A stretch of DNA of 64,000 nt from Dehalococcoidia bacterium (GTDB lineage: Bacteria > Chloroflexota > Dehalococcoidia > DSTF01 > JACRBR01), in contig JBGQBE010000006.1 in assembly GCA_041494685.1 (NCBI GenBank), forward strand, positions 16,064 through 80,063, read 5' to 3'. Below are positions 20,312 through 55,605 of this stretch, one piece after another. A program made the position numbers and the translations under genes. The stretch's first letter is position 1, and the number at the start of each line of letters is the position of its first letter. Below the pieces are notes generated by a model. That model had not been told where the DNA came from. It worked only from the letters and a program-made list of their open reading frames with translations, and did no database searches.

Positions 20312-20339
20312 TTGACATCTGCACATTCGATGGTAATCT
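20312..20339 (+). promoter_or_regulatory. dcw cluster promoter (Pmra): -35 TTGACA, ~16-nt spacer, -10 TAATCT
   Basis: TTGACA at 20312..20317 and TAATCT at 20334..20339, ~65 nt upstream of mraZ; divergent from mog. Confidence 0.5.
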
Positions 20340-35970: not shown

Positions 35971-37179
35971 ATGCCTGAATACCAGCAGACGGTGATGTTC
36001 GAAGCGGAAGTGCGAGAGCTGAAGCAGGAAGAAGAGCGTAGGGAGGCCATCATGAGCAGGGGGTACACGGACGGACTGCCACCGATCAAGGTCGTCGGCG
36101 TGGGCGGCGGCGGCTGCAACGCCGTCAACCGCATGATCGCCGAGAAGGTGCCGGGGGTGCAATTCGTGGCGGTGAACACGGACGCGCAGGCGCTGCAGCA
36201 GTCGCAGGCGGAGGTGAAGATCCGCATCGGCGACAAGCTGACGAAGGGGCTGGGCGTCGGCGGCGACCCGAACCGCGGCCTGCGGGCGGCGGAGGAGAGC
36301 CGCGACGAGCTGCTGGAGGCCGTGCGCGGCTGTGAGATGGTGTTCGTGACGGCCGGCATGGGCGGCGGCACGGGCACGGGCGCGGCGCCCATGGTGGCCG
36401 AGGTGGCGAAGGAGGCCGGCGCGCTGACGATCGGCGTCGTCACGAAGCCGTTCGGCTTCGAGGGCGCGAAGCGGCGCGCGCAGGCGGAAGAGGGCATCCA
36501 GCGCCTGCAGGACAAGGTCGACACGCTGATCATCATCCCGAACGACCGGCTGCTCCAGATCTGCGACGAGAAGGCCACGGTCGAGGACGCGTTCCGCACG
36601 GCGGACAACATCCTGCTCCAGGGCATCCGCGGCATCAGCGAGATCATCACGCTGCCCGGGGAGATCAACCTGGACTTCGCGGACGTGCGGAAGATCATGT
36701 CGGACGCGGGTCCGGCGCTGATGGCGATCGGCCGGGCGAGCGGCGCGAACCGGGCGGCGGACGCGGCGATGATGGCGATCAGCAGCCCGCTGCTGGAGGT
36801 GTCGATCGACGGCGCGCGCGGCGTGCTGTTCAACATCAGCGGCGGCAAGAACCTGGGGCTGCACGAGATCAACGCGGCGGCGCAGGTGATCCAGGACGTG
36901 GTGGACCCGAACGCGGAGATCATCTTCGGCACGGCGATCGACCCGTCGCTGGGCGACGAGGTGCAGATCACGCTGATCGCGACCGGGTTCGCGCGACCCG
37001 TGGCGGTGCACCCGATCCCGGAGCAGTACCGCAAGCGGAACCCGGACGACGACGCGGGCACGGACGGCGACGAGCCGGCCGAGCAGGAGCCCGCACACGC
37101 GCAGGCGCAGGCGGCGACGCCGGACCCGCGCGACACCGAGCTACCGACGTTCCTGCGCCGCACCGTCGCGGCGCGCTAA
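35971..37179 (+). CDS. ftsZ: cell division GTPase FtsZ
   Basis: [17 protein letters not shown]...; GGGTGTG tubulin signature; GGAGGAGG RBS. Confidence 0.95.
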
Positions 37180-37255
37180 GGGGCGTTTGTAGGAAGTTGG
37201 AGGAAAGGAGGAGCCTGTCTAGCCAGTCGGTCCCGGAGTAGAGGTGCTTCGGGAA

Positions 37256-37322
37256 CTTTCCCCCACCAGGGAAAGAACAGGGCCGTGAGCGTCGTAATTG
37301 GGAGATGACGACGCTCACGGCC
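37256..37322 (+). terminator. two consecutive GC-rich stem-loops downstream of ftsZ (likely dcw-cluster terminator region; no U-tract)
   Basis: CTTTCCCccaccaGGGAAAG (37256..37275) and the perfect 15-bp stem GGCCGTGAGCGTCGTaattgggagatgACGACGCTCACGGCC (37281..37322). Confidence 0.45.
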
Positions 37323-37543
37323 TACCCATCTCCCCGAGAGGAGAAGAGAAGCGGCCCGACCCGGTGGAGCGGCATGGGCAGACGCCACAAGACCGGGAGC
37401 CTGGGCCACGGGGGGAATTGTAGCGGTTTCGGCAGTAGTTATGTAGTGGGGCGAGGTCGTCAGCCGGCCAGCTCGTCAGCGGGTCAGCCGATCGGCTGGT
37501 TAGCCTGTCGACCAGTCTTCAGTCTCCATCACCAGGTGACCAG

Positions 37544-37606
37544 CACTACATCTAGCGCCACGTTCACTCAGAAGCCGTTGACAAGCACTAGATGTAGTGC
37601 TAACCT
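37544..37606 (+). promoter_or_regulatory. two NrdR boxes overlapping a sigma70-like promoter (-35 TTGACA 37578..37583, -10 TAACCT 37601..37606) upstream of nrdR
   Basis: Box1 CACTACATCTAGCG (37544..37557) and box2 CACTAGATGTAGTG (37586..37599) match the NrdR-box palindrome aCACwAtATaTwGTGt; centres 42 bp apart; box2 lies in the -35/-10 spacer. Confidence 0.6.
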
Positions 37607-37686
37607 CTGCTACCAGCGCAGCCCTTGATCTGTGAAGGCGCTTGACCGATTGATCAGGGGCGAGCGGTCCGAGGGATACGAGAACC

Positions 37687-38334
37687 ATGCAGTGCCCATT
37701 CTGCAGCAACCCCGACTCCCGCGTGGTGGACTCCCGCGACGTTGACGGCGCGATCCGCCGCCGGCGCGAGTGCCTGAACCCGGCGTGCGCGTCGCGTTTC
37801 ACCACGTACGAGCGGGTGCAGGCGGTGGCGATCTACGTCGTGAAGAAGGACGGGCGCCGCGAAGAGTTCTCGCGCGAGAAGCTGCTGGGCGGGCTGCGGA
37901 GAGCCTGCGAGAAGCGGCCGCTGGCCGCGGGCGCGGTCGAGGCGCTGGCCGCGGACATCGAGTCCGCGCTGTACGCGTCGAACGCGGCGGAGGTGCCGTC
38001 CAGCGTTGTGGGTGAACTGGTGATCGAGCGGCTGCGCGACCTGGACCCGGTCGCCTACGTACGGTTCGCCAGCGTGTACCGCCAGTTCGCCGATGTCGAT
38101 TCGTTCCGGGAAGAACTGGAGGCGCTGGCTTCCGGCACGCGGCCCGCACAGGCCCAACTGCCGTTGCTGGACGCGGAGTTCTCCCCCACCTCTCTTCGGC
38201 TGCGACCGGCCGCACCGAATTCACGAACCCGTACCCGCCGCCCGGTGCGGCCGGTGCAGACTCCTGTCTCCATTGCGGAGCAGGCTGCGCCGCGGGGGCC
38301 GTCGAAGAGGGCGAAGAACGCGCGCCAGGCGTAG
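37687..38334 (+). CDS. nrdR: transcriptional repressor NrdR (zinc ribbon + ATP-cone) with an unusual ~55-aa low-complexity C-terminal extension
   Basis: MQCPFCSNPDSRVVDSRDVDGAIRRRRECLNPACASRFTTYERV...VVKKDGRREEFSREKLLGGLRRACEKRP... then tail ...RPAAPNSRTRTRRPVRPVQTPVSIAEQAAPRGPSKRAKNARQA. Confidence 0.9.
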   Translation: MQCPFCSNPDSRVVDSRDVDGAIRRRRECLNPACASRFTTYERVQAVAIYVVKKDGRREEFSREKLLGGLRRACEKRPLAAGAVEALAADIESALYASNAAEVPSSVVGELVIERLRDLDPVAYVRFASVYRQFADVDSFREELEALASGTRPAQAQLPLLDAEFSPTSLRLRPAAPNSRTRTRRPVRPVQTPVSIAEQAAPRGPSKRAKNARQA

Positions 38335-38373
38335 GACAGCCCGCCGCGGCGGGAGTGCAAGGAGAGCAATCGC

Positions 38374-38763
38374 GTGCGCATGGAAGGCAAGCTGACGAAC
38401 GCAGGCGGCGAGTTCATCGCCAGCGGCCCGTGTGAGGTGAACCGGGACCGCGGCGAGGTGACGATGTGGCCCTCGTGGGAGTTGCACATGCTGGAGCGCG
38501 AGCGCGGCGCCCTGACGCTGGAGCTTGAGGACGGCACGCAGCTGGCGATCAGCGACAAGCATTTGACGTTCAAGCTGCGCGGCCCGGCCGAGCAGCGGAT
38601 CTCCGTGTACCGGCTGCGCGTGATCGAGCGCGTGCCGGAGCACCTGGCCACGGGGTACGCCGCACCGGCGCAGGATGCGCCGGCCGCGGCGGCCGACGCG
38701 GAAGACGCCGCGGCCGTGCCCGACAACGTGGTGCGCATGGAGCGCACACAGCCTTCCCAATAG
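38374..38763 (+). CDS. hypothetical protein (129 aa), nrdR-nrdJ operon member
   Basis: GTG start 7 nt after GGAGAG; strong GC3 bias; MRMEGKLTNAGGEFIASGPCEVNRDRGEVTMWPSWELHMLERERGALTLELEDGTQLAISDKHLTFKLRGP...; no recognised domain. Confidence 0.55.
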   Translation: MRMEGKLTNAGGEFIASGPCEVNRDRGEVTMWPSWELHMLERERGALTLELEDGTQLAISDKHLTFKLRGPAEQRISVYRLRVIERVPEHLATGYAAPAQDAPAAAADAEDAAAVPDNVVRMERTQPSQ

Positions 38764-38802
38764 CAGCACGGCCCGCGATGTGCGGGGCGCAGGAGGCAGG
38801 GA

Positions 38803-39093
38803 GTGCCGAACGTCGAGCTCTTCATGGATGAAGTCGTGACCGGACTCCGGCGGCGTCTCGCGCTGCTGGGCGACAGCGGCGACCGCCGCGCGATCGAGGA
38901 TGGCATCGCGCTGCTGACCCGCTACCGTCTGCGCGGCATGGATGAAGCGCGGTTTGAGATGCTGCTCTCGACCCTGCGCGCGGGGCGCACGCCGGACGGT
39001 CAGCCCGTGCTGAAGCCGGCCCTGCTGGCCGGAGAGCTGGCGCGGCGGTGGGACGCCTTCGCCGGAGGCACCGCCTACCCGGCACGGAACTAG
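38803..39093 (+). CDS. hypothetical protein (96 aa), nrdR-nrdJ operon member
   Basis: GTG start after AGGAGG; GC3 bias; predicted helical MPNVELFMDEVVTGLRRRLALLGDSGDRRAIEDGIALLTRYRLRGMDEARFEMLLSTLRAG... Confidence 0.55.
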   Translation: MPNVELFMDEVVTGLRRRLALLGDSGDRRAIEDGIALLTRYRLRGMDEARFEMLLSTLRAGRTPDGQPVLKPALLAGELARRWDAFAGGTAYPARN

Positions 39094-39193
39094 AAGCAGC
39101 AAGCACGGCGCCGTCCAATCGCTGCGGGGCGAGGGCGGCGCCGATGTATTGCGGGGAAGCGTGGACTTAGCGCTTCGATAGGTGGGAGGAAAC

Positions 39194-39463
39194 TTGAGCG
39201 CGACTGTTGCAATGGACCCGGCGTTAAATCAGGCTGTGGCTGACCTGAGCGCGGACGTGATCGCGTTCCTGCAACAGGTCCACGACGGCGTCGCCGAGGA
39301 CGTGCGCGCGACCGCCGCATACCACCAGCGGAGACTGCGGGAGTTCGTGCGCGCCACGGGTGTGACGCTCAACGACCTCCCCGCATGGCAGGCGAACAGC
39401 ACGGCATGGCGCGCCATCGCGAGGCTCGCCAGTCCGGTGATGACGGCAACACAGGCAGGCTAG
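39194..39463 (+). CDS. hypothetical protein (~89 aa), nrdR-nrdJ operon member
   Basis: TTG start 4 nt after GGTGGGAGG (track start 39182; alternative ATG 39212); (M)SATVAMDPALNQAVADLSADVIAFLQQVHDGVAEDVRATAAYHQRRLREFVRATG... Confidence 0.5.
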   Translation: MSATVAMDPALNQAVADLSADVIAFLQQVHDGVAEDVRATAAYHQRRLREFVRATGVTLNDLPAWQANSTAWRAIARLASPVMTATQAG

Positions 39464-39485
39464 CAAGCGAAAGGAATCCCGCGTC

Positions 39486-42272
39486 ATGGTCCTCCAGGCC
39501 GAGCCCGAAGCCCGCAGATCGCTGAACGGAACCGCATGCACCGTCGAGCGCTTCTTCACGCGCTCCGGGGATGATCCGTTCAACGATCTCGCGTGGGAAT
39601 ACCGGACGGCCGTCATCGCCGACGAGACGGGCAACGCGTTCTTCGAGCAGAAGGACGTGGAGATCCCGAAGGCGTGGTCGCAGACCGCGACCAACGTCGT
39701 CGTGTCGAAGTACTTCCGCGGCCCGCTCGGCACCGACCGGCGCGAGCGCAGCGTGAAGCAGATGATCGGCCGCGTGTCCGACACGATCACCCGCTGGGGC
39801 GTGAAGGACGACTATTTCGAGAGCGCTGAAGAGGCGCAGACGTTCCATGACGAGCTGACGCACCTGCTGGTCCACCAGAAGATGGCGTTCAACAGCCCGG
39901 TGTGGTTCAACGTCGGCGTCGAAGAGAAGCCGCAGTGCTCGGCGTGCTTCATCCTCTCCGTGGACGACACGATGGAGTCGATCCTCGACTGGTGCAAGAC
40001 GGAGGGCATGATCTTCAAGGGCGGATCGGGCAGCGGCATCAACCTGTCGCCGATCCGGTCCAGCAAGGAGCAGCTGTCCGCCGGCGGCCAGGCAAGCGGG
40101 CCGATCTCCTTCATGCGCGGCGCGGACTCGATCGCCGGATCGATCAAGTCGGGCGGCAAGACGCGGCGCGCGGCGAAGATGGTGGTGCTGAACGTCGACC
40201 ACCCGGACGTCGAGGAGTTCATCGACTGCAAGGTGAACGAGGAGCGGAAGGCGCTGGCGCTGGGCGAGGCCGGCTGGGACATGTCGTTGAACGGCGACGC
40301 CTGGTCGTCGATCCAGTTCCAGAACGCCAACAACTCCATCCGCGTGTCCGACGAATTCATGCGCTCGGCGGTCGAAGGCCGCCCCTGGCAGCTTCGATCG
40401 GTGCGAGATGGCTCGGTAGCGAACGAAGTCAACGCCCGCGATCTGCTGAACCGGATGGCGGCCGCGGCGTGGGCCTGCGGCGACCCCGGCATGCAGTACG
40501 ACACGACGATCAACGACTGGCACACGTGCGCGAACACGGCGCGGATCAACGCGAGCAACCCGTGCTCGGAGTACATGCACGTGGACAACAGCGCGTGCAA
40601 TCTGGCGTCGCTCAACCTGATGAAGTTCATCGATGACGACGGCGTCTTCGACTCCGAGTCGTTCCGACGCGCGGTGACGGTGACGATCTGGGCGCAGGAG
40701 ATCATCGTCGGCAACTCCAGCTATCCGACGCCGAAGATCGCGGCGAACACGATCGCGATGCGTCAGCTCGGCCTCGGCTACGCGAACCTCGGCGCGCTGC
40801 TGATGTCGCTGGGACTTCCGTACGACTCCGACGCGGGCCGCGCGTACGCCGCGGCGATCACCGCGCTGATGACGGGACACGCGTACGCGACGTCCGCCGC
40901 GATCGCGCAGCGGGTCGGCCCGTTCGACGCCTTCCACCTGAATCGCGAGCCGATGTTGCGGGTAGTTGCGAAACATCGTGACGCTTCGCGTACAATACAG
41001 ACGGCGCATGTGCCGTCGGCGTTGATCGGCGCAGCGCAGCAAGCGTGGGATGACGCGTTGGAGTCTGGACAGAAGTTTGGTTACCGCAACGCGCAGGCGA
41101 CGGTGCTGGCACCGACCGGGACGATCGCGTTCATGATGGACTGCGACACCACGGGCGTGGAGCCGGACATCGCGCTGGTGAAGTACAAGAAGCTCGTCGG
41201 CGGCGGCATGATCAAGATCGTCAACCAGACGGTGCCGCGCGCGTTGAAGCGCCTGGGCTACGGTGCGCCGGAAGTCGAGCAGATCGTGAAGCACATCGAC
41301 GCCACCGGCACGATCGAGGGCGCGCCCGGCCTGCGCGACGAGGACCTGGCGGTCTTCGACTGCGCGTTCAAGGCGGAGAACGGCAAGCGCTCGATCCACC
41401 ACATGGGCCACATCAAGATGATGGGCGCAACGCAGCCGTTCATCTCCGGCGCGATCAGCAAGACGGTGAACCTGCCGAACGAGGCGACCGTCGAGGACGT
41501 GGCGGACACGTACGTGGAAGCGTGGCGGCACGGCGTCAAGGCAATCGCCATCTACCGCGACGGCTCGAAGACGGTGCAGCCGCTCTCGACGTCGAAGTCG
41601 TCATCCGGGACGGGCGCCGCGGCGGCGGAGCCGGCGCAGCCCGTGCGGCGGAAGATGCCGGACACCCGAAGCTCGCTGACGCATAAATTTTGCATCGAGG
41701 GCCACGACGGCTACATCACCGTCGGGCTGTACGACGACGGCACGCCAGGGGAGATCTTCCTCTCGATGGCGAAGCAGGGCTCGACGGTGAGCGGCCTGAT
41801 GGAGGCGTTCGGCCGGGCGATCTCGTACACGCTCCAGTACGGCGTGCCGGTGCAGGACCTGGTGCGGAACTTCGCGCACATGCGGTTCGAGCCGATGGGC
41901 CGGACGGAGAACCGGGACATCCCGGTGGCGCAGTCGATCATCGACTACGTGTTCCGCTGGCTTGCGAGCCGCTACATGTCGCCCGGCGACGCGTACGAAG
42001 TCGGCGTGATGACGCCGGAGATCAAGGCCGCGCTGGCGGCCGGACAGTACCCGCTGCCATTGGCGGGAGCGGTCGCGCCGGTGGCGGGTGGCAGCGAGAG
42101 CGCGCCAGCCGCGACGCTGGGCGCGGGGACGGCCGTGCCGGCGATGTACCAGGCGCCGCGTGCCAACGGGCACGCCGATGCGCCTGCGTGCGCCAGCTGC
42201 GGCTGGATCATGATTCGGTCGGGGACGTGTTACCGCTGTGAGAACTGCGGTAGCACGAGTGGCTGCTCCTAA
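39486..42272 (+). CDS. nrdJ: adenosylcobalamin-dependent (class II) ribonucleoside-diphosphate reductase NrdJ
   Basis: 928 aa; ...FEQKDVEIPKAWSQTATNVVVSKYFRG...PQCSACFILSVDDTMESILDWCKTEGMIFKGGSGSGINLSPIRS...; C-terminal Cys-rich zinc ribbon CASCGWIMIRSGTCYRCENCG. Confidence 0.95.
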   Translation: MVLQAEPEARRSLNGTACTVERFFTRSGDDPFNDLAWEYRTAVIADETGNAFFEQKDVEIPKAWSQTATNVVVSKYFRGPLGTDRRERSVKQMIGRVSDTITRWGVKDDYFESAEEAQTFHDELTHLLVHQKMAFNSPVWFNVGVEEKPQCSACFILSVDDTMESILDWCKTEGMIFKGGSGSGINLSPIRSSKEQLSAGGQASGPISFMRGADSIAGSIKSGGKTRRAAKMVVLNVDHPDVEEFIDCKVNEERKALALGEAGWDMSLNGDAWSSIQFQNANNSIRVSDEFMRSAVEGRPWQLRSVRDGSVANEVNARDLLNRMAAAAWACGDPGMQYDTTINDWHTCANTARINASNPCSEYMHVDNSACNLASLNLMKFIDDDGVFDSESFRRAVTVTIWAQEIIVGNSSYPTPKIAANTIAMRQLGLGYANLGALLMSLGLPYDSDAGRAYAAAITALMTGHAYATSAAIAQRVGPFDAFHLNREPMLRVVAKHRDASRTIQTAHVPSALIGAAQQAWDDALESGQKFGYRNAQATVLAPTGTIAFMMDCDTTGVEPDIALVKYKKLVGGGMIKIVNQTVPRALKRLGYGAPEVEQIVKHIDATGTIEGAPGLRDEDLAVFDCAFKAENGKRSIHHMGHIKMMGATQPFISGAISKTVNLPNEATVEDVADTYVEAWRHGVKAIAIYRDGSKTVQPLSTSKSSSGTGAAAAEPAQPVRRKMPDTRSSLTHKFCIEGHDGYITVGLYDDGTPGEIFLSMAKQGSTVSGLMEAFGRAISYTLQYGVPVQDLVRNFAHMRFEPMGRTENRDIPVAQSIIDYVFRWLASRYMSPGDAYEVGVMTPEIKAALAAGQYPLPLAGAVAPVAGGSESAPAATLGAGTAVPAMYQAPRANGHADAPACASCGWIMIRSGTCYRCENCGSTSGCS

Positions 42273-42316
42273 CGGTAGGGGCAAACAGGTCAAGGAAGAC
42301 AGGAGGCAGGGAAAGA

Positions 42317-42565
42317 ATGGCTGTAGCAGCGAAGAAGCCGGCAGCGAAGAAGCCGGCCGCCAAGAAGAAGCCAGCGGCCAAGAAGGCTGCGGCGAAGAAG
42401 CCGGCCGCCAAGAAGGCTGCCCCCAAGAAGAAGCCGGCGGCGAAGAAGCCGGCCGCCAAGAAGAAGCCGGCCGCCAAGAAGGCTGCCCCCAAGAAGGCAG
42501 CAGCGGCGAAGTCCCGAACCGCCAAGAAGCCGGCCGCGAAGCGCAAGCCGGCGGCGAAGAAGTAA
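42317..42565 (+). CDS. histone H1/AlgP-like lysine-alanine-rich nucleoid-associated protein (KAPA/AKKPAAKK repeats)
   Basis: MAVAAKKPAAKKPAAKKKPAAKKAAAKKPAAKK... 82 aa; strong RBS GGAGG; DNA is a tandem 24-30-nt repeat; the opposite-strand ORF (AAGFF repeats) is its shadow. Confidence 0.8.
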   Translation: MAVAAKKPAAKKPAAKKKPAAKKAAAKKPAAKKAAPKKKPAAKKPAAKKKPAAKKAAPKKAAAAKSRTAKKPAAKRKPAAKK

Positions 42566-42573
42566 ATGGCTCG

Positions 42574-42666
42574 GGTGGCGGCAGTCCCCGGCCGCCACCC
42601 GCACGCCTTCTCCCCGACAGGCGTGTAAGACATGTGGTCTGGCCCCGAGGTTCGGGGCCAGACCAC
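42574..42666 (+). terminator. two GC-rich hairpins after the histone-like gene (likely terminator; no U-tract)
   Basis: GGTGGCGGCagtccccgGCCGCCACC (42574..42599) and the perfect 15-bp stem GTGGTCTGGCCCCGAggttCGGGGCCAGACCAC (42634..42666). Confidence 0.45.
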
Positions 42667-42709
42667 ACCCTCACAGCGGGGCAGCCGGCAAGCACAGGGA
42701 GCCATCCCC

Positions 42710-55419: not shown

Positions 55420-55494
55420 GGATCAGGAGCGCAACGCATGCCAGGGCCGCATGACGCGGGGCGGCGGATCTTGGTACGCTGATGTGACAGCAGA

Positions 55495-55605
55495 TCGTTC
55501 TGCGGGAGCTGGGAGATGCCCGGCTGAGAGGGCCGCCGGCGCGGCCGACCGCCGAACCTGACCCGGGTAATGCCGGCGCAGGGAGTGGACACCGGCCCGC
55601 CTCGC
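55495..55605 (+). promoter_or_regulatory. TPP riboswitch (THI element) controlling the thiD-thiG-thiE-thiS-thiO operon
   Basis: Conserved CTGAGA (55523..55528) and ACCTGAcccGGgTAATGCCggCGcAGGGA (55555..55583), ~30 nt upstream of the thiD ATG. Confidence 0.85.

What the first reader, a model, noticed from the sequence alone, without database searches (positions are those of the whole stretch)
37544..37606. Tandem NrdR boxes overlapping a TTGACA/TAACCT promoter
Two 14-16-bp palindromes, CACTACATCTAGCG and CACTAGATGTAGTG, match the NrdR-box consensus. Their centres are 42 bp apart (four helical turns), and the second lies in the -35/-10 spacer. This predicts NrdR autoregulation and dNTP-responsive repression of the whole nrdR...nrdJ operon. 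The usual box spacing is ~31-32 bp, so the 42-bp spacing is unusual.
Basis: partly seen in the sequence, partly recalled or inferred. Interest (0 to 1): 0.5.

Follow-up and report, generated by a model that had tools for sequence, protein, structure and literature searches.

The report
Four-turn NrdR operator at nrdR promoter
Two binding sites for NrdR, the repressor of DNA-precursor synthesis genes, sit on the promoter of its own operon in a Chloroflexota genome; they lie one helical turn further apart than usual, an arrangement already described in streptococci, so this is a solid but largely ordinary regulatory site.

Summary
Two 16-bp NrdR boxes (37543-37558 and 37585-37600) lie 42 bp centre to centre, a 26-bp spacer. 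Box 2 exactly fills the 17-bp gap between TTGACA (37578-83) and TAACCT (37601-06), 86 bp upstream of nrdR.

- **Motif strength.** A PWM built only from other organisms' boxes ranks these two first and second in the 64-kb window (20.5 and 15.6 bits; next best 8.1). The same PWM recovers the experimentally studied E. coli boxes.
- **Published criteria.** Both boxes carry all six key positions (C4, A6, A8, T9, T11, G13).
- **Conservation.** In 15 of 15 members of this Chloroflexota clade the layout box1 / 18 variable nt / TTGACA / box2 / TAnnnT is kept. The spacing is always 42 bp, although the flanks are randomised and the 5' UTR varies from 49 to 86 nt. The nearest outgroup has the same layout with a 30-bp distance.

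The NrdR-operator reading is therefore well supported. The "unusual" spacing belongs to a published minority class: 24-27-bp spacers, equal to four helical turns (Shahid et al. 2025).

Not shown here: the transcription start, actual binding, and co-transcription through to nrdJ. Three unknown ORFs and a conserved hairpin lie between nrdR and nrdJ.

Verdict: a new member of a known kind, of modest interest.

The parts
37543..37558 (.). NrdR box 1 (GCACTACATCTAGCGC), the promoter-distal box
   Evidence: Sequence. PWM score 15.6 bits, rank 2 in the window. C4, A6, A8, T9, T11 and G13 are all present; 75% A+T between C4 and G13. Positionally conserved in 15/15 relatives.
37559..37584 (.). 26-bp inter-box spacer. 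The first 18 nt are variable in sequence but fixed in length; the last 8 nt are GTTGACAA.
   Evidence: Length is 26 in 15/15 clade members. Pairwise identity of the 18 variable nt is 0.31, against 0.28 for the upstream flank.
37578..37583 (+). -35-like hexamer TTGACA
   Evidence: Sequence. TTGACA is invariant in 15/15 relatives, within (G/A)TTGACA(A/G).
37585..37600 (.). NrdR box 2 (GCACTAGATGTAGTGC), which fills the -35/-10 spacer
   Evidence: PWM score 20.5 bits, rank 1 in the window. All six key positions present. Conserved in 15/15 relatives.
37601..37606 (+). -10-like hexamer TAACCT (TAnnnT), 17 bp after the -35
   Evidence: Sequence. TAnnnT is kept in 15/15 relatives as TAACCT, TAATCT, TACTCT, TACATT or TACGTT. 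It fails the generic promoter scanner because only 3 of 6 bases match TATAAT.
37687..38334 (+). nrdR (215 aa): Zn-ribbon plus ATP-cone core (aa 1-148) and a clade-specific basic C-terminal tail (aa 149-215)
   Evidence: Pfam PF22811 and PF03477. TIGR00244 scores 183 bits against a cutoff of 125. Matches PDB NrdR chains at 3e-37. D15 and R17 are present. Tail motif RLRPAAPxxRTRTRRPVRPVQTP is close to invariant across the clade.
38374..38763 (+). orfA (127-129 aa), a conserved hypothetical protein
38803..39093 (+). orfB (96 aa), a conserved hypothetical protein
   Evidence: No family hit. tblastn finds it at 52-93% identity, in the same position, in 12 of 13 clade loci tested.
39099..39152 (+). 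GC-rich hairpin just after the orfB stop; possible attenuator or RNA-stability element
   Evidence: MFE of the 111-nt region is -51.2 kcal/mol, z = -3.7. A strong hairpin follows the orfB stop in most of the 12 clade loci folded, with different stem sequences.
39182..39463 (+). orfC (83-93 aa; start codon uncertain), a conserved hypothetical protein
   Evidence: No family hit above threshold. A gene was called in the public assembly. tblastn detects it in 7 of 13 clade loci.
39486..42272 (+). nrdJ, class II (B12-dependent) ribonucleotide reductase, 928 aa
   Evidence: Pfam PF08471, PF02867 and PF12637. NF005122 scores 1428 bits against a cutoff of 859.
37280..37323 (+). Strong hairpin about 100 nt after the ftsZ stop; probably ends the ftsZ transcript upstream of the nrdR promoter
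   Evidence: 18-nt arms, 94% complementary. MFE -36.3 kcal/mol, z = -6.25. It has no U-tract, so its role as a terminator is inferred.

Best explanation
The site is the operator-promoter of an autoregulated nrdR-(orfA-orfB-orfC)-nrdJ gene cluster in an uncultured Chloroflexota bacterium (MAGs labelled Dehalococcoidia).

**Proposed mechanism.** A sigma-70-type promoter (TTGACA, 17 bp, TAACCT) drives nrdR. When dATP rises relative to ATP, NrdR forms the dATP/ATP-loaded tetramer. One dimer binds box 2, which occupies the whole -35/-10 spacer. The other dimer binds box 1, four helical turns (42 bp) upstream on the same face of the DNA. RNA polymerase is thereby excluded. With ATP only, NrdR forms larger oligomers that cannot bind DNA, and the promoter is free.

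**What is distinctive.** The operator belongs to the published 'long-spacer' class (24-27 bp). In this clade the four-turn geometry is fixed. It looks like the three-turn layout of the nearest outgroup with about 12 bp added between box 1 and the -35.

**Shown here:** the motifs, their significance, their conservation, the gene identities and the conserved gene order.

**Inferred:** binding, nucleotide dependence, the transcription start (about 37612-37614) and co-transcription through to nrdJ.
For: 1. **Statistics.** The boxes and promoter hexamers are at the stated coordinates and are far above chance.
2. **Independent PWM.** A PWM trained without the window ranks the boxes 1st and 2nd in 64 kb. 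The same PWM recovers box pairs 31-32 bp apart in the E. coli nrdAB, nrdHIEF and nrdDG promoters, and the recovered sequences match those listed in PMC13584703.
3. **Key positions.** The six positions C4, A6, A8, T9, T11 and G13 defined experimentally (PMC13584703) are invariant in 30 of 30 boxes from 15 clade members. A+T between C4 and G13 is 75%, above the published 63% lower limit.
4. **Phylogenetic footprint.** Pairwise identity is 0.68 and 0.76 for the boxes, 0.94 for the -35 octamer and 0.76 for the -10 heptamer, against 0.28-0.34 for flanks and spacer. The centre distance is 42 bp in 15/15, while the distance from box 2 to the ATG ranges from 49 to 86 nt.
5. **The promoter travels with nrdR.** The upstream neighbour differs in L067, L068, L070 and L071.
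6. **Cognate repressor.** NrdR is present with the DNA-contact residues D15 and R17 (contacts from PMC9110341).
7. **Spacing is a known functional class.** Four NrdR proteins show a second affinity optimum at 24-27-bp spacers, i.e. an integer number of turns (PMC12051234). Linker length matters, not linker sequence (PMC13584703 abstract).
8. **Outgroups.** L008 has box1, 14 bp containing TTGACA, then box2. Other phyla show 30-33 bp.
9. **No second operator.** There is no other NrdR-box pair in the window or in any clade locus, and no cryptic third box near the pair.
Against: - No transcription start, binding or expression data exist for this organism.
- TAACCT matches TATAAT at only 3 of 6 positions, and the generic promoter scan did not report it.
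- Long spacers bound 7- to 70-fold worse than optimal short ones for three of the four NrdRs tested in vitro, so the strength of repression here is unknown.
- A stable hairpin after orfB, seen in most clade loci folded, is followed by a short U-containing stretch. It could terminate part of the transcripts before nrdJ.
- Only a 64-kb window, not the whole genome, served as background.
Confidence: 0.85

Rival explanations
1. The operator is real but controls only nrdR-orfA-orfB. The conserved hairpin after orfB would terminate transcription, and orfC-nrdJ would be expressed from a separate, unrecognised promoter or element lying in the conserved ~30-nt motif at 39156-39187.
For: A GC-rich hairpin follows the orfB stop in most clade loci folded, usually followed by GTTATG or GTATTG. 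A DNA-level conserved motif, GAAGCGTGGAnTTAGCGCTTCGAnAGGTGG, precedes orfC.
Against: - No hairpin followed by a T-run is predicted on the + strand between 37100 and 42700.
- The conserved motif contains no sigma-70-like -35/-10 pair (reading; one search finds no TTGACA-N-TANNNT there).
- There is no NrdR box near nrdJ in any locus, so the only RNR in the neighbourhood would escape its dedicated repressor.
- Gene gaps are short (22-118 bp) and the gene order is conserved.
- In Streptomyces, nrdR and nrdJ share one promoter region and are treated as a single nrdRJ unit (PMC9110341).
Confidence: 0.25
2. The two arms are not protein-binding sites. They would instead form a 17-nt inverted repeat making an RNA or DNA hairpin, for example a terminator for read-through from ftsZ, or a cruciform.
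For: In the window the arms at 37542-37558 and 37585-37601 are 94% complementary.
Against: - Complementarity between box 1 and box 2 is 8-13 of 16 in the 14 relatives; the window, at 15, is the extreme.
- What is conserved instead is the six palindrome-consensus positions within each box.
- The 26-nt 'loop' contains an invariant TTGACA.
- A much stronger dedicated hairpin already follows ftsZ at 37280-37323.
- The element accompanies nrdR even where ftsZ is not the upstream gene.
Confidence: 0.03
3. The palindromes are bound by a different transcription factor with a similar half-site, and the match to NrdR boxes is coincidental.
For: No binding data exist, and many dimeric regulators recognise AT-centred 14-16-bp palindromes.
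Against: - All six NrdR-specific positions are exact, with the correct 8-bp distance between C4 and G13.
- The boxes are in tandem at an integer number of helical turns.
- They lie in front of nrdR/nrdJ.
- The PWM cross-recognises the E. coli nrd promoters studied experimentally.
Confidence: 0.04

Closest known systems
Streptomyces coelicolor nrdRJ operator (NrdR tetramer on two boxes; cryo-EM, Rozman Grinberg et al. 2022, PMC9110341)
   Same: - nrdR is the first gene and a class II nrdJ lies downstream on the same strand.
- Two 16-bp boxes lie in the promoter region, which implies autoregulation.
- NrdR has a Zn-ribbon plus ATP-cone with D15 and R17.
- The box sequences are close: window box 2 matches the S. 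coelicolor nrdAB box 2 (GCACAAGATGTAGTCT) at 13 of 16 positions.
   Different: - The spacer is 26 bp (four turns) instead of 15-16 bp (three turns).
- Three unknown ORFs and a hairpin separate nrdR from nrdJ.
- NrdR aligns to E. coli NrdR without a gap between the two domains, whereas S. coelicolor NrdR is 3 residues shorter over the same 148. This suggests an E. coli-length interdomain linker rather than the short Streptomyces one.
- NrdR carries a different, clade-specific basic C-terminal tail.
Streptococcus pneumoniae nrdHEF and nrdDG long-spacer NrdR sites (Shahid et al. 2025, PMC12051234)
   Same: The spacer between boxes is 25-26 bp, so the centres are about 42 bp, or four helical turns, apart. 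The long spacer is conserved across most of a genus or clade.
   Different: - Different phylum (Bacillota against Chloroflexota) and different RNR classes (Ib and III against II).
- In S. pneumoniae, box 2 includes the -35 (nrdDG) or both hexamers lie downstream of box 2 (nrdHEF). Here the -35 lies inside the inter-box spacer and box 2 fills the -35/-10 gap.
- The site studied here is in front of nrdR itself. The S. pneumoniae sites described are in front of the RNR operons.
E. coli nrdHIEF, nrdDG and nrdAB NrdR operators
   Same: The same box consensus: the PWM from this study recovers them at 12.8-17.3 bits, except the weaker downstream nrdAB box at 6.3 bits. They also show the two-box requirement.
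   Different: Centre distance is 31-32 bp. nrdR is not adjacent to these operons.
Nearest outgroup Chloroflexota locus L008 (JAJYLG010000010.1, NrdR 59% identical)
   Same: Identical layout: box 1, then a spacer containing TTGACA directly abutting box 2, with box 2 in the -35/-10 gap.
   Different: The spacer is 14 bp (30 bp centre to centre). NrdR is 190 aa with an unrelated tail. The downstream RNR is only 33% identical.

Membership tests
NrdR operator (tandem NrdR boxes) | A 16-bp partially palindromic box with C4, A6, A8, T9, T11 and G13 (PMC13584703) | tested here: met
   Both window boxes carry all six positions. They are invariant in 30/30 boxes from 15 clade members.
NrdR operator (tandem NrdR boxes) | 8 bp between C4 and G13, and at least 63% A+T between them | tested here: met
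   C-N8-G in both boxes. A/T is 6 of 8 (75%) in both (criteria).
NrdR operator (tandem NrdR boxes) | Two boxes whose centres are an integer number of helical turns apart (usually 3; 4 tolerated) | tested here: met
   42 bp is 4.0 turns at 10.5 bp per turn. The distance is 42 in 15/15 relatives. The class is described in PMC12051234.
NrdR operator (tandem NrdR boxes) | Motif score above background with an NrdR-box PWM | tested here: met
   Ranks 1 and 2 of 64 kb (20.5 and 15.6 bits against 8.1 for the next best). The PWM was validated on the E. coli nrd promoters. The RegPrecise PWM itself was not available.
NrdR operator (tandem NrdR boxes) | Lies in the promoter region of an RNR operon and overlaps the RNA polymerase binding site | tested here: inconclusive
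   Box 2 fills the gap of a conserved TTGACA-17-TAnnnT, and nrdJ lies downstream on the same strand. However, the promoter is predicted only; no transcription start data exist.
NrdR operator (tandem NrdR boxes) | A cognate NrdR (Zn-ribbon plus ATP-cone, DNA-contact residues D15 and R17) is encoded in the genome | tested here: met
   (TIGR00244 equivalog, 183 bits against a cutoff of 125).
NrdR operator (tandem NrdR boxes) | Binding by the NrdR tetramer that depends on dATP plus ATP | not testable with these tools
   Requires EMSA or MST with purified protein.
Autoregulated nrdRJ operon (Streptomyces type) | nrdR and nrdJ are co-transcribed from the NrdR-controlled promoter | tested here: inconclusive
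   For: same strand, gaps of 22-118 bp, conserved gene order, and no T-run terminator. Against: three extra ORFs and a conserved hairpin intervene.
Long-spacer NrdR sites (24-27 bp; Shahid et al. 2025) | The core-regex pair C.[AT].A[AT].[AT].G is separated by 30-33 nt | tested here: met
   The published regex matches 37546-37597 with a core spacer of 32, which equals a box distance of 26 (method).

The most novel reading that the evidence does not exclude
This Chloroflexota clade has fixed a four-turn NrdR operator in 15 of 15 members. Its NrdR carries a clade-specific C-terminal motif that is almost invariant and rich in Arg and Pro (RLRPAAPxxRTRTRRPVRPVQTP). The nearest three-turn outgroup lacks this motif.

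If the tail is what adapts the tetramer to the longer spacing, it would be the first natural protein determinant of NrdR spacing preference. It could act by contacting the extra spacer DNA or by changing the angle between the two dimers. Shahid et al. 2025 raised this idea only as speculation.

In addition, the three unknown ORFs kept between nrdR and nrdJ could be new accessory factors of class II RNR under NrdR control.
Probability: 0.15. Interest if true: 0.55.

Novelty: new member of a known kind. Interest (0 to 1): 0.33.

Why it matters
The result gives a clean, comparatively validated example of the four-turn NrdR operator outside Bacillota, in a mostly uncultured Chloroflexota lineage. 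There the geometry is strictly fixed and is coupled to a defined promoter layout.

This supports the helical-phase rule proposed from in-vitro work.

It also suggests that the published survey may have missed this site, because it extracted only the 500 nt upstream of genes annotated as RNRs. Here the operator lies about 1.9 kb upstream of nrdJ, in front of nrdR.

Finally, it offers a natural pair for testing what sets NrdR's spacing preference: the clade NrdR with its conserved basic tail and 26-bp spacer, against the outgroup with a 14-bp spacer. None of this changes the understanding of how NrdR works.

Tried and rejected
- **Generic promoter/terminator scan, 37100-42700.** It reported no promoter because TAACCT fails its 4-of-6 rule. 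It is therefore uninformative about internal promoters, and I used conservation and a TTGACA-N16-18-TANNNT search instead.
- **Published loose regex alone.** It gives 132 single-box strand hits and several chance 'pairs' in coding DNA. It was too permissive, so I replaced it with a PWM.
- **Hidden third box.** I searched offsets of 19-55 bp on both sides of each box, and the whole of 37400-37700, for a box that would restore 31-32-bp spacing. Nothing scored above 2.6 bits.
- **Hairpin or cruciform reading of the inverted repeat.** Rejected, because inter-box complementarity is not conserved.
- **Direct repeat D2** (TGACCAGCAC... / TGACAAGCAC...) as a duplicated promoter. The upstream TGACCA is not conserved in relatives.
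- **Rfam scan of the whole window.** It found only a TPP riboswitch at 55492-55602 and nothing near the operon.
- **RNAalifold on the orfB-orfC intergenic region.** It failed because the MAFFT alignment does not put the stems in register. The hairpin is positional, not sequence-conserved.
- **Pfam and NCBIfam for orfA, orfB, orfC and the NrdR tail.** No significant hit.
- **Literature and supplement search for a per-phylum spacer table or any mention of Chloroflexota.** Nothing retrievable.
- **P0112.** The locus has no DNA available.

Full report
**What is in the sequence.** Reading 37200-38100 confirms the finding's coordinates. CACTACATCTAGCG is at 37544-37557 and CACTAGATGTAGTG at 37586-37599. 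With one flanking base on each side they form the canonical 16-mers GCACTACATCTAGCGC (37543-37558) and GCACTAGATGTAGTGC (37585-37600). The centres are 42 bp apart, which gives a 26-bp spacer. TTGACA is at 37578-37583 and TAACCT at 37601-37606. The 17-bp gap between them is one base plus the whole of box 2.

The next ORF, 37687-38334, encodes a 215-aa NrdR. It has a Pfam Zn_ribbon_NrdR domain and an ATP-cone. It scores 183 bits on TIGR00244 against a cutoff of 125 and matches solved NrdR structures at 3e-37. The DNA-contact residues D15 and R17 are present (contacts from PMC9110341). ftsA and ftsZ lie upstream. A 928-aa class II reductase, NrdJ, is at 39486-42272.

Between nrdR and nrdJ are three small same-strand ORFs with no family match: orfA (38374-38763), orfB (38803-39093) and orfC (about 39182-39463). 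An identical NrdR is encoded in the MAG assembly GCA_041478795.1. The closest relatives are MAGs labelled Dehalococcoidia or Chloroflexi.

**Is it more than chance?**
- The 14-mer with up to 3 mismatches gives 6 strand-matches against 1.18 expected. No shuffle out of 100 reaches 6, and four of the six matches are these two sites.
- The published NrdR regex (PMC12051234) matches both boxes with a core spacer of 32, which is the authors' 'long' class. On its own it is permissive.
- I therefore built a 16-bp palindromic PWM from 20 boxes found upstream of nrdR in other loci and excluded the window. It scores the two boxes 20.5 and 15.6 bits, ranks 1 and 2 in the window, with the next best at 8.1. 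In 200 Markov-simulated 64-kb sequences, 0.045 hits per sequence reached 15.6 bits and none had a pair within 60 bp.
- As a positive control, the same PWM recovers the box pairs of E. coli nrdHIEF, nrdDG and nrdAB at 31-32 bp. The recovered sequences are those tabulated in PMC13584703.
- TTGACA-N16-18-TANNNT occurs twice in the window against 0.03 expected.

**Published box criteria.** PMC13584703 defines six highly conserved positions (C4, A6, A8, T9, T11, G13), 8 bp between C4 and G13, and at least 63% A+T between them. Both window boxes meet all of these, with 75% A+T.

**Comparative evidence.** Relatives came from three sources: genome contigs, metagenome contigs, and look-ups of homologues from the protein search.

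All 14 further clade members for which DNA was retrieved (NrdR 67-96% identical, 212-225 aa where complete) have the same layout as the window. This layout is box 1, then 18 variable nt, then (G/A)TTGACA(A/G), then box 2, then TAnnnT. The centre distance is exactly 42 bp in every case.

| Segment | Mean pairwise identity |
|---|---|
| Box 1 | 0.68 |
| Box 2 | 0.76 |
| -35 octamer | 0.94 |
| -10 heptamer | 0.76 |
| 18 nt upstream of box 1 | 0.28 |
| 18 variable nt of the spacer | 0.31 |
| 18 nt downstream of the -10 | 0.34 |

The distance from box 2 to the ATG ranges from 49 to 86 nt. So the spacer is free to change in sequence but not in length. This agrees with the published statement that the linker is constrained in length only. 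The six key positions are invariant in 30 of 30 boxes. The element stays with nrdR where the upstream gene differs.

Outside the clade the distances are 30-33 bp: L008 has 30, an Armatimonadota locus 31, and CPR loci 32-33. The nearest outgroup, L008 (NrdR 59% identical), has the same layout with only 14 bp between the boxes. The -35 is again inside the spacer and abuts box 2. The clade's operator therefore looks like that layout with about 12 bp, one helical turn, added between box 1 and the -35. No cryptic third box exists at any offset that could restore a 31-32-bp pair.

**Mechanism.** What follows rests on established NrdR biology (PMC9110341; PMC12051234). The dATP/ATP-loaded tetramer binds two boxes through its Zn-ribbons. 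ATP-only oligomers cannot bind DNA. Binding is best when the box centres are an integer number of turns apart; three turns is usual, and a second optimum lies at 24-27-bp spacers.

Applied here, one dimer on box 2 would occupy the entire -35/-10 spacer. The other would sit four turns upstream, with the -35 in the DNA between them. RNA polymerase would be excluded when dATP is high. Because nrdR is the first gene, the circuit is autoregulatory. The motifs, their conservation and the gene content are shown. Binding, nucleotide dependence and the start site (about 37612-37614) are inferred.

**How far the regulation reaches.**

For a single transcription unit:
- The genes share a strand and the gaps are 22-118 bp.
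- The order nrdR-orfA-orfB-(orfC)-nrdJ is conserved across the clade.
- No hairpin followed by a T-run is predicted on the + strand.
- No NrdR box lies near nrdJ in any locus.

Against a simple operon:
- A GC-rich hairpin directly follows the orfB stop (39099-39152; the 111-nt region folds at -51.2 kcal/mol, z = -3.7).
- Most clade loci folded have such a hairpin, with different stem sequences, usually followed by GTTATG or GTATTG.
- A ~30-nt DNA-conserved motif then precedes orfC.

This could be an attenuator, a processing or stability element, or something else. I could not resolve it. I put full co-transcription at roughly 0.6-0.7. A separate strong hairpin after ftsZ (37280-37323, z = -6.25) probably insulates the nrdR promoter from ftsZ read-through.

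**Rivals.** The arms are 94% complementary in the window, which suggests a hairpin or cruciform. In the relatives, however, inter-box complementarity is only 8-13 of 16, while the within-box consensus positions are invariant. That reading is rejected. A different regulator is very unlikely, given the exact NrdR criteria and the cross-recognition of E. coli sites.

**Comparison with what is known, and novelty.** NrdR operators, autoregulated nrdRJ units (Streptomyces) and long 25-26-bp spacers (most Streptococcus) are all published. Shahid et al. 2025 also surveyed spacer lengths in all GTDB species genomes by phylum. Only their figure shows the per-phylum result, and I could not read it.

That survey took 500 nt upstream of genes annotated as RNRs. 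Here the operator is about 1.9 kb upstream of nrdJ, in front of nrdR, so it may have been missed. This is an inference. I found no paper that discusses NrdR sites in Chloroflexota.

I file this as a new member of a known kind. It is a well-supported operator of the long-spacer class, in a new lineage and with a defined promoter layout.

**What could make it more interesting.** The clade's NrdR carries a ~67-aa C-terminal extension containing an almost invariant motif, RLRPAAPxxRTRTRRPVRPVQTP. The outgroup L008 has an unrelated tail. The literature calls NrdR C-terminal parts variable and of unknown function. It speculates that the interdomain linker and the C-termini set spacing tolerance. The co-occurrence of tail and four-turn spacing is a single phylogenetic event, so it is a lead and not evidence.

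**Verdict.** Confidence that this is a functional NrdR operator-promoter is about 0.85. Interest is about 0.33.

Noticed in passing
[not shown]
   Followed up: partly
window 39099-39187: A GC-rich hairpin lies directly after the orfB stop. Most clade loci folded have one, with different stem sequences. It is followed by a DNA-level conserved motif, GAAGCGTGGAcTTAGCGCTTCGAtAGGTGG, just before orfC. Possible attenuator, processing site or unrecognised regulatory element inside the operon.
   Followed up: partly
window 38131-38331 (NrdR aa 149-215): A clade-specific C-terminal extension of NrdR carries an almost invariant Arg/Pro-rich motif, RLRPAAPxxRTRTRRPVRPVQTP. It is absent from the 30-bp-spacing outgroup L008 and from the E. 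coli NrdR chains in the PDB (151-162 aa, little beyond the ~148-aa core).
   Followed up: partly
window 37280-37323: A very stable hairpin (18-nt arms, -36 kcal/mol, z = -6.25) lies about 100 nt after the ftsZ stop and has no U-tract. It is probably the end of the ftsZ transcript.
   Followed up: partly
window 37443-37506: Five overlapping 24-nt copies in an 8-bp register, i.e. about six to eight tandem octamers resembling GTCAGCNG, lie just upstream of box 1. They are not obviously conserved in relatives' upstream regions.
   Followed up: no
window 37432-37449; L047 at -251 relative to nrdR: The 95%-identical relative L047 has a third box-like site (CCACCTTATGTAGTGT, 15.7 bits) 107 bp upstream of box 1. 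The window keeps only the right half (TATGTAGTGG), and the best PWM score there is 2.6 bits.
   Followed up: partly
window 55492-55602: A TPP riboswitch (RF00059, 55.2 bits, just above the gathering threshold) on the + strand.
   Followed up: no
window 20312-20339: The only other TTGACA-N16-18-TANNNT match in the window (TTGACA...TAATCT, + strand). Possibly another strong promoter.
   Followed up: no
window about 42300-42600: Just downstream of nrdJ the DNA has a very high A-over-T skew (AT skew up to 0.83) and contains the repeat CAAGAAGAAGCCGGCGGCGAAGAAGCCGGCCGCCAAGAAGAAG (42424-42466).
   Followed up: no
loci L009, L016, L021-L023, L027, L028 and the window: ftsZ lies immediately upstream of nrdR not only in this clade but also in distant Chloroflexota, an Armatimonadota MAG and a Phascolarctobacterium MAG. 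This is a recurrent adjacency of the cell-division cluster and nrdR.
   Followed up: no
loci L029, L054, L058 (CPR / Doudnabacteria-like): In these loci box 1, not box 2, lies in the -35/-10 gap (TTGACA-ga-box1-TATATT) and box 2 covers the predicted start site. The register of the operator relative to the promoter therefore differs between lineages.
   Followed up: no
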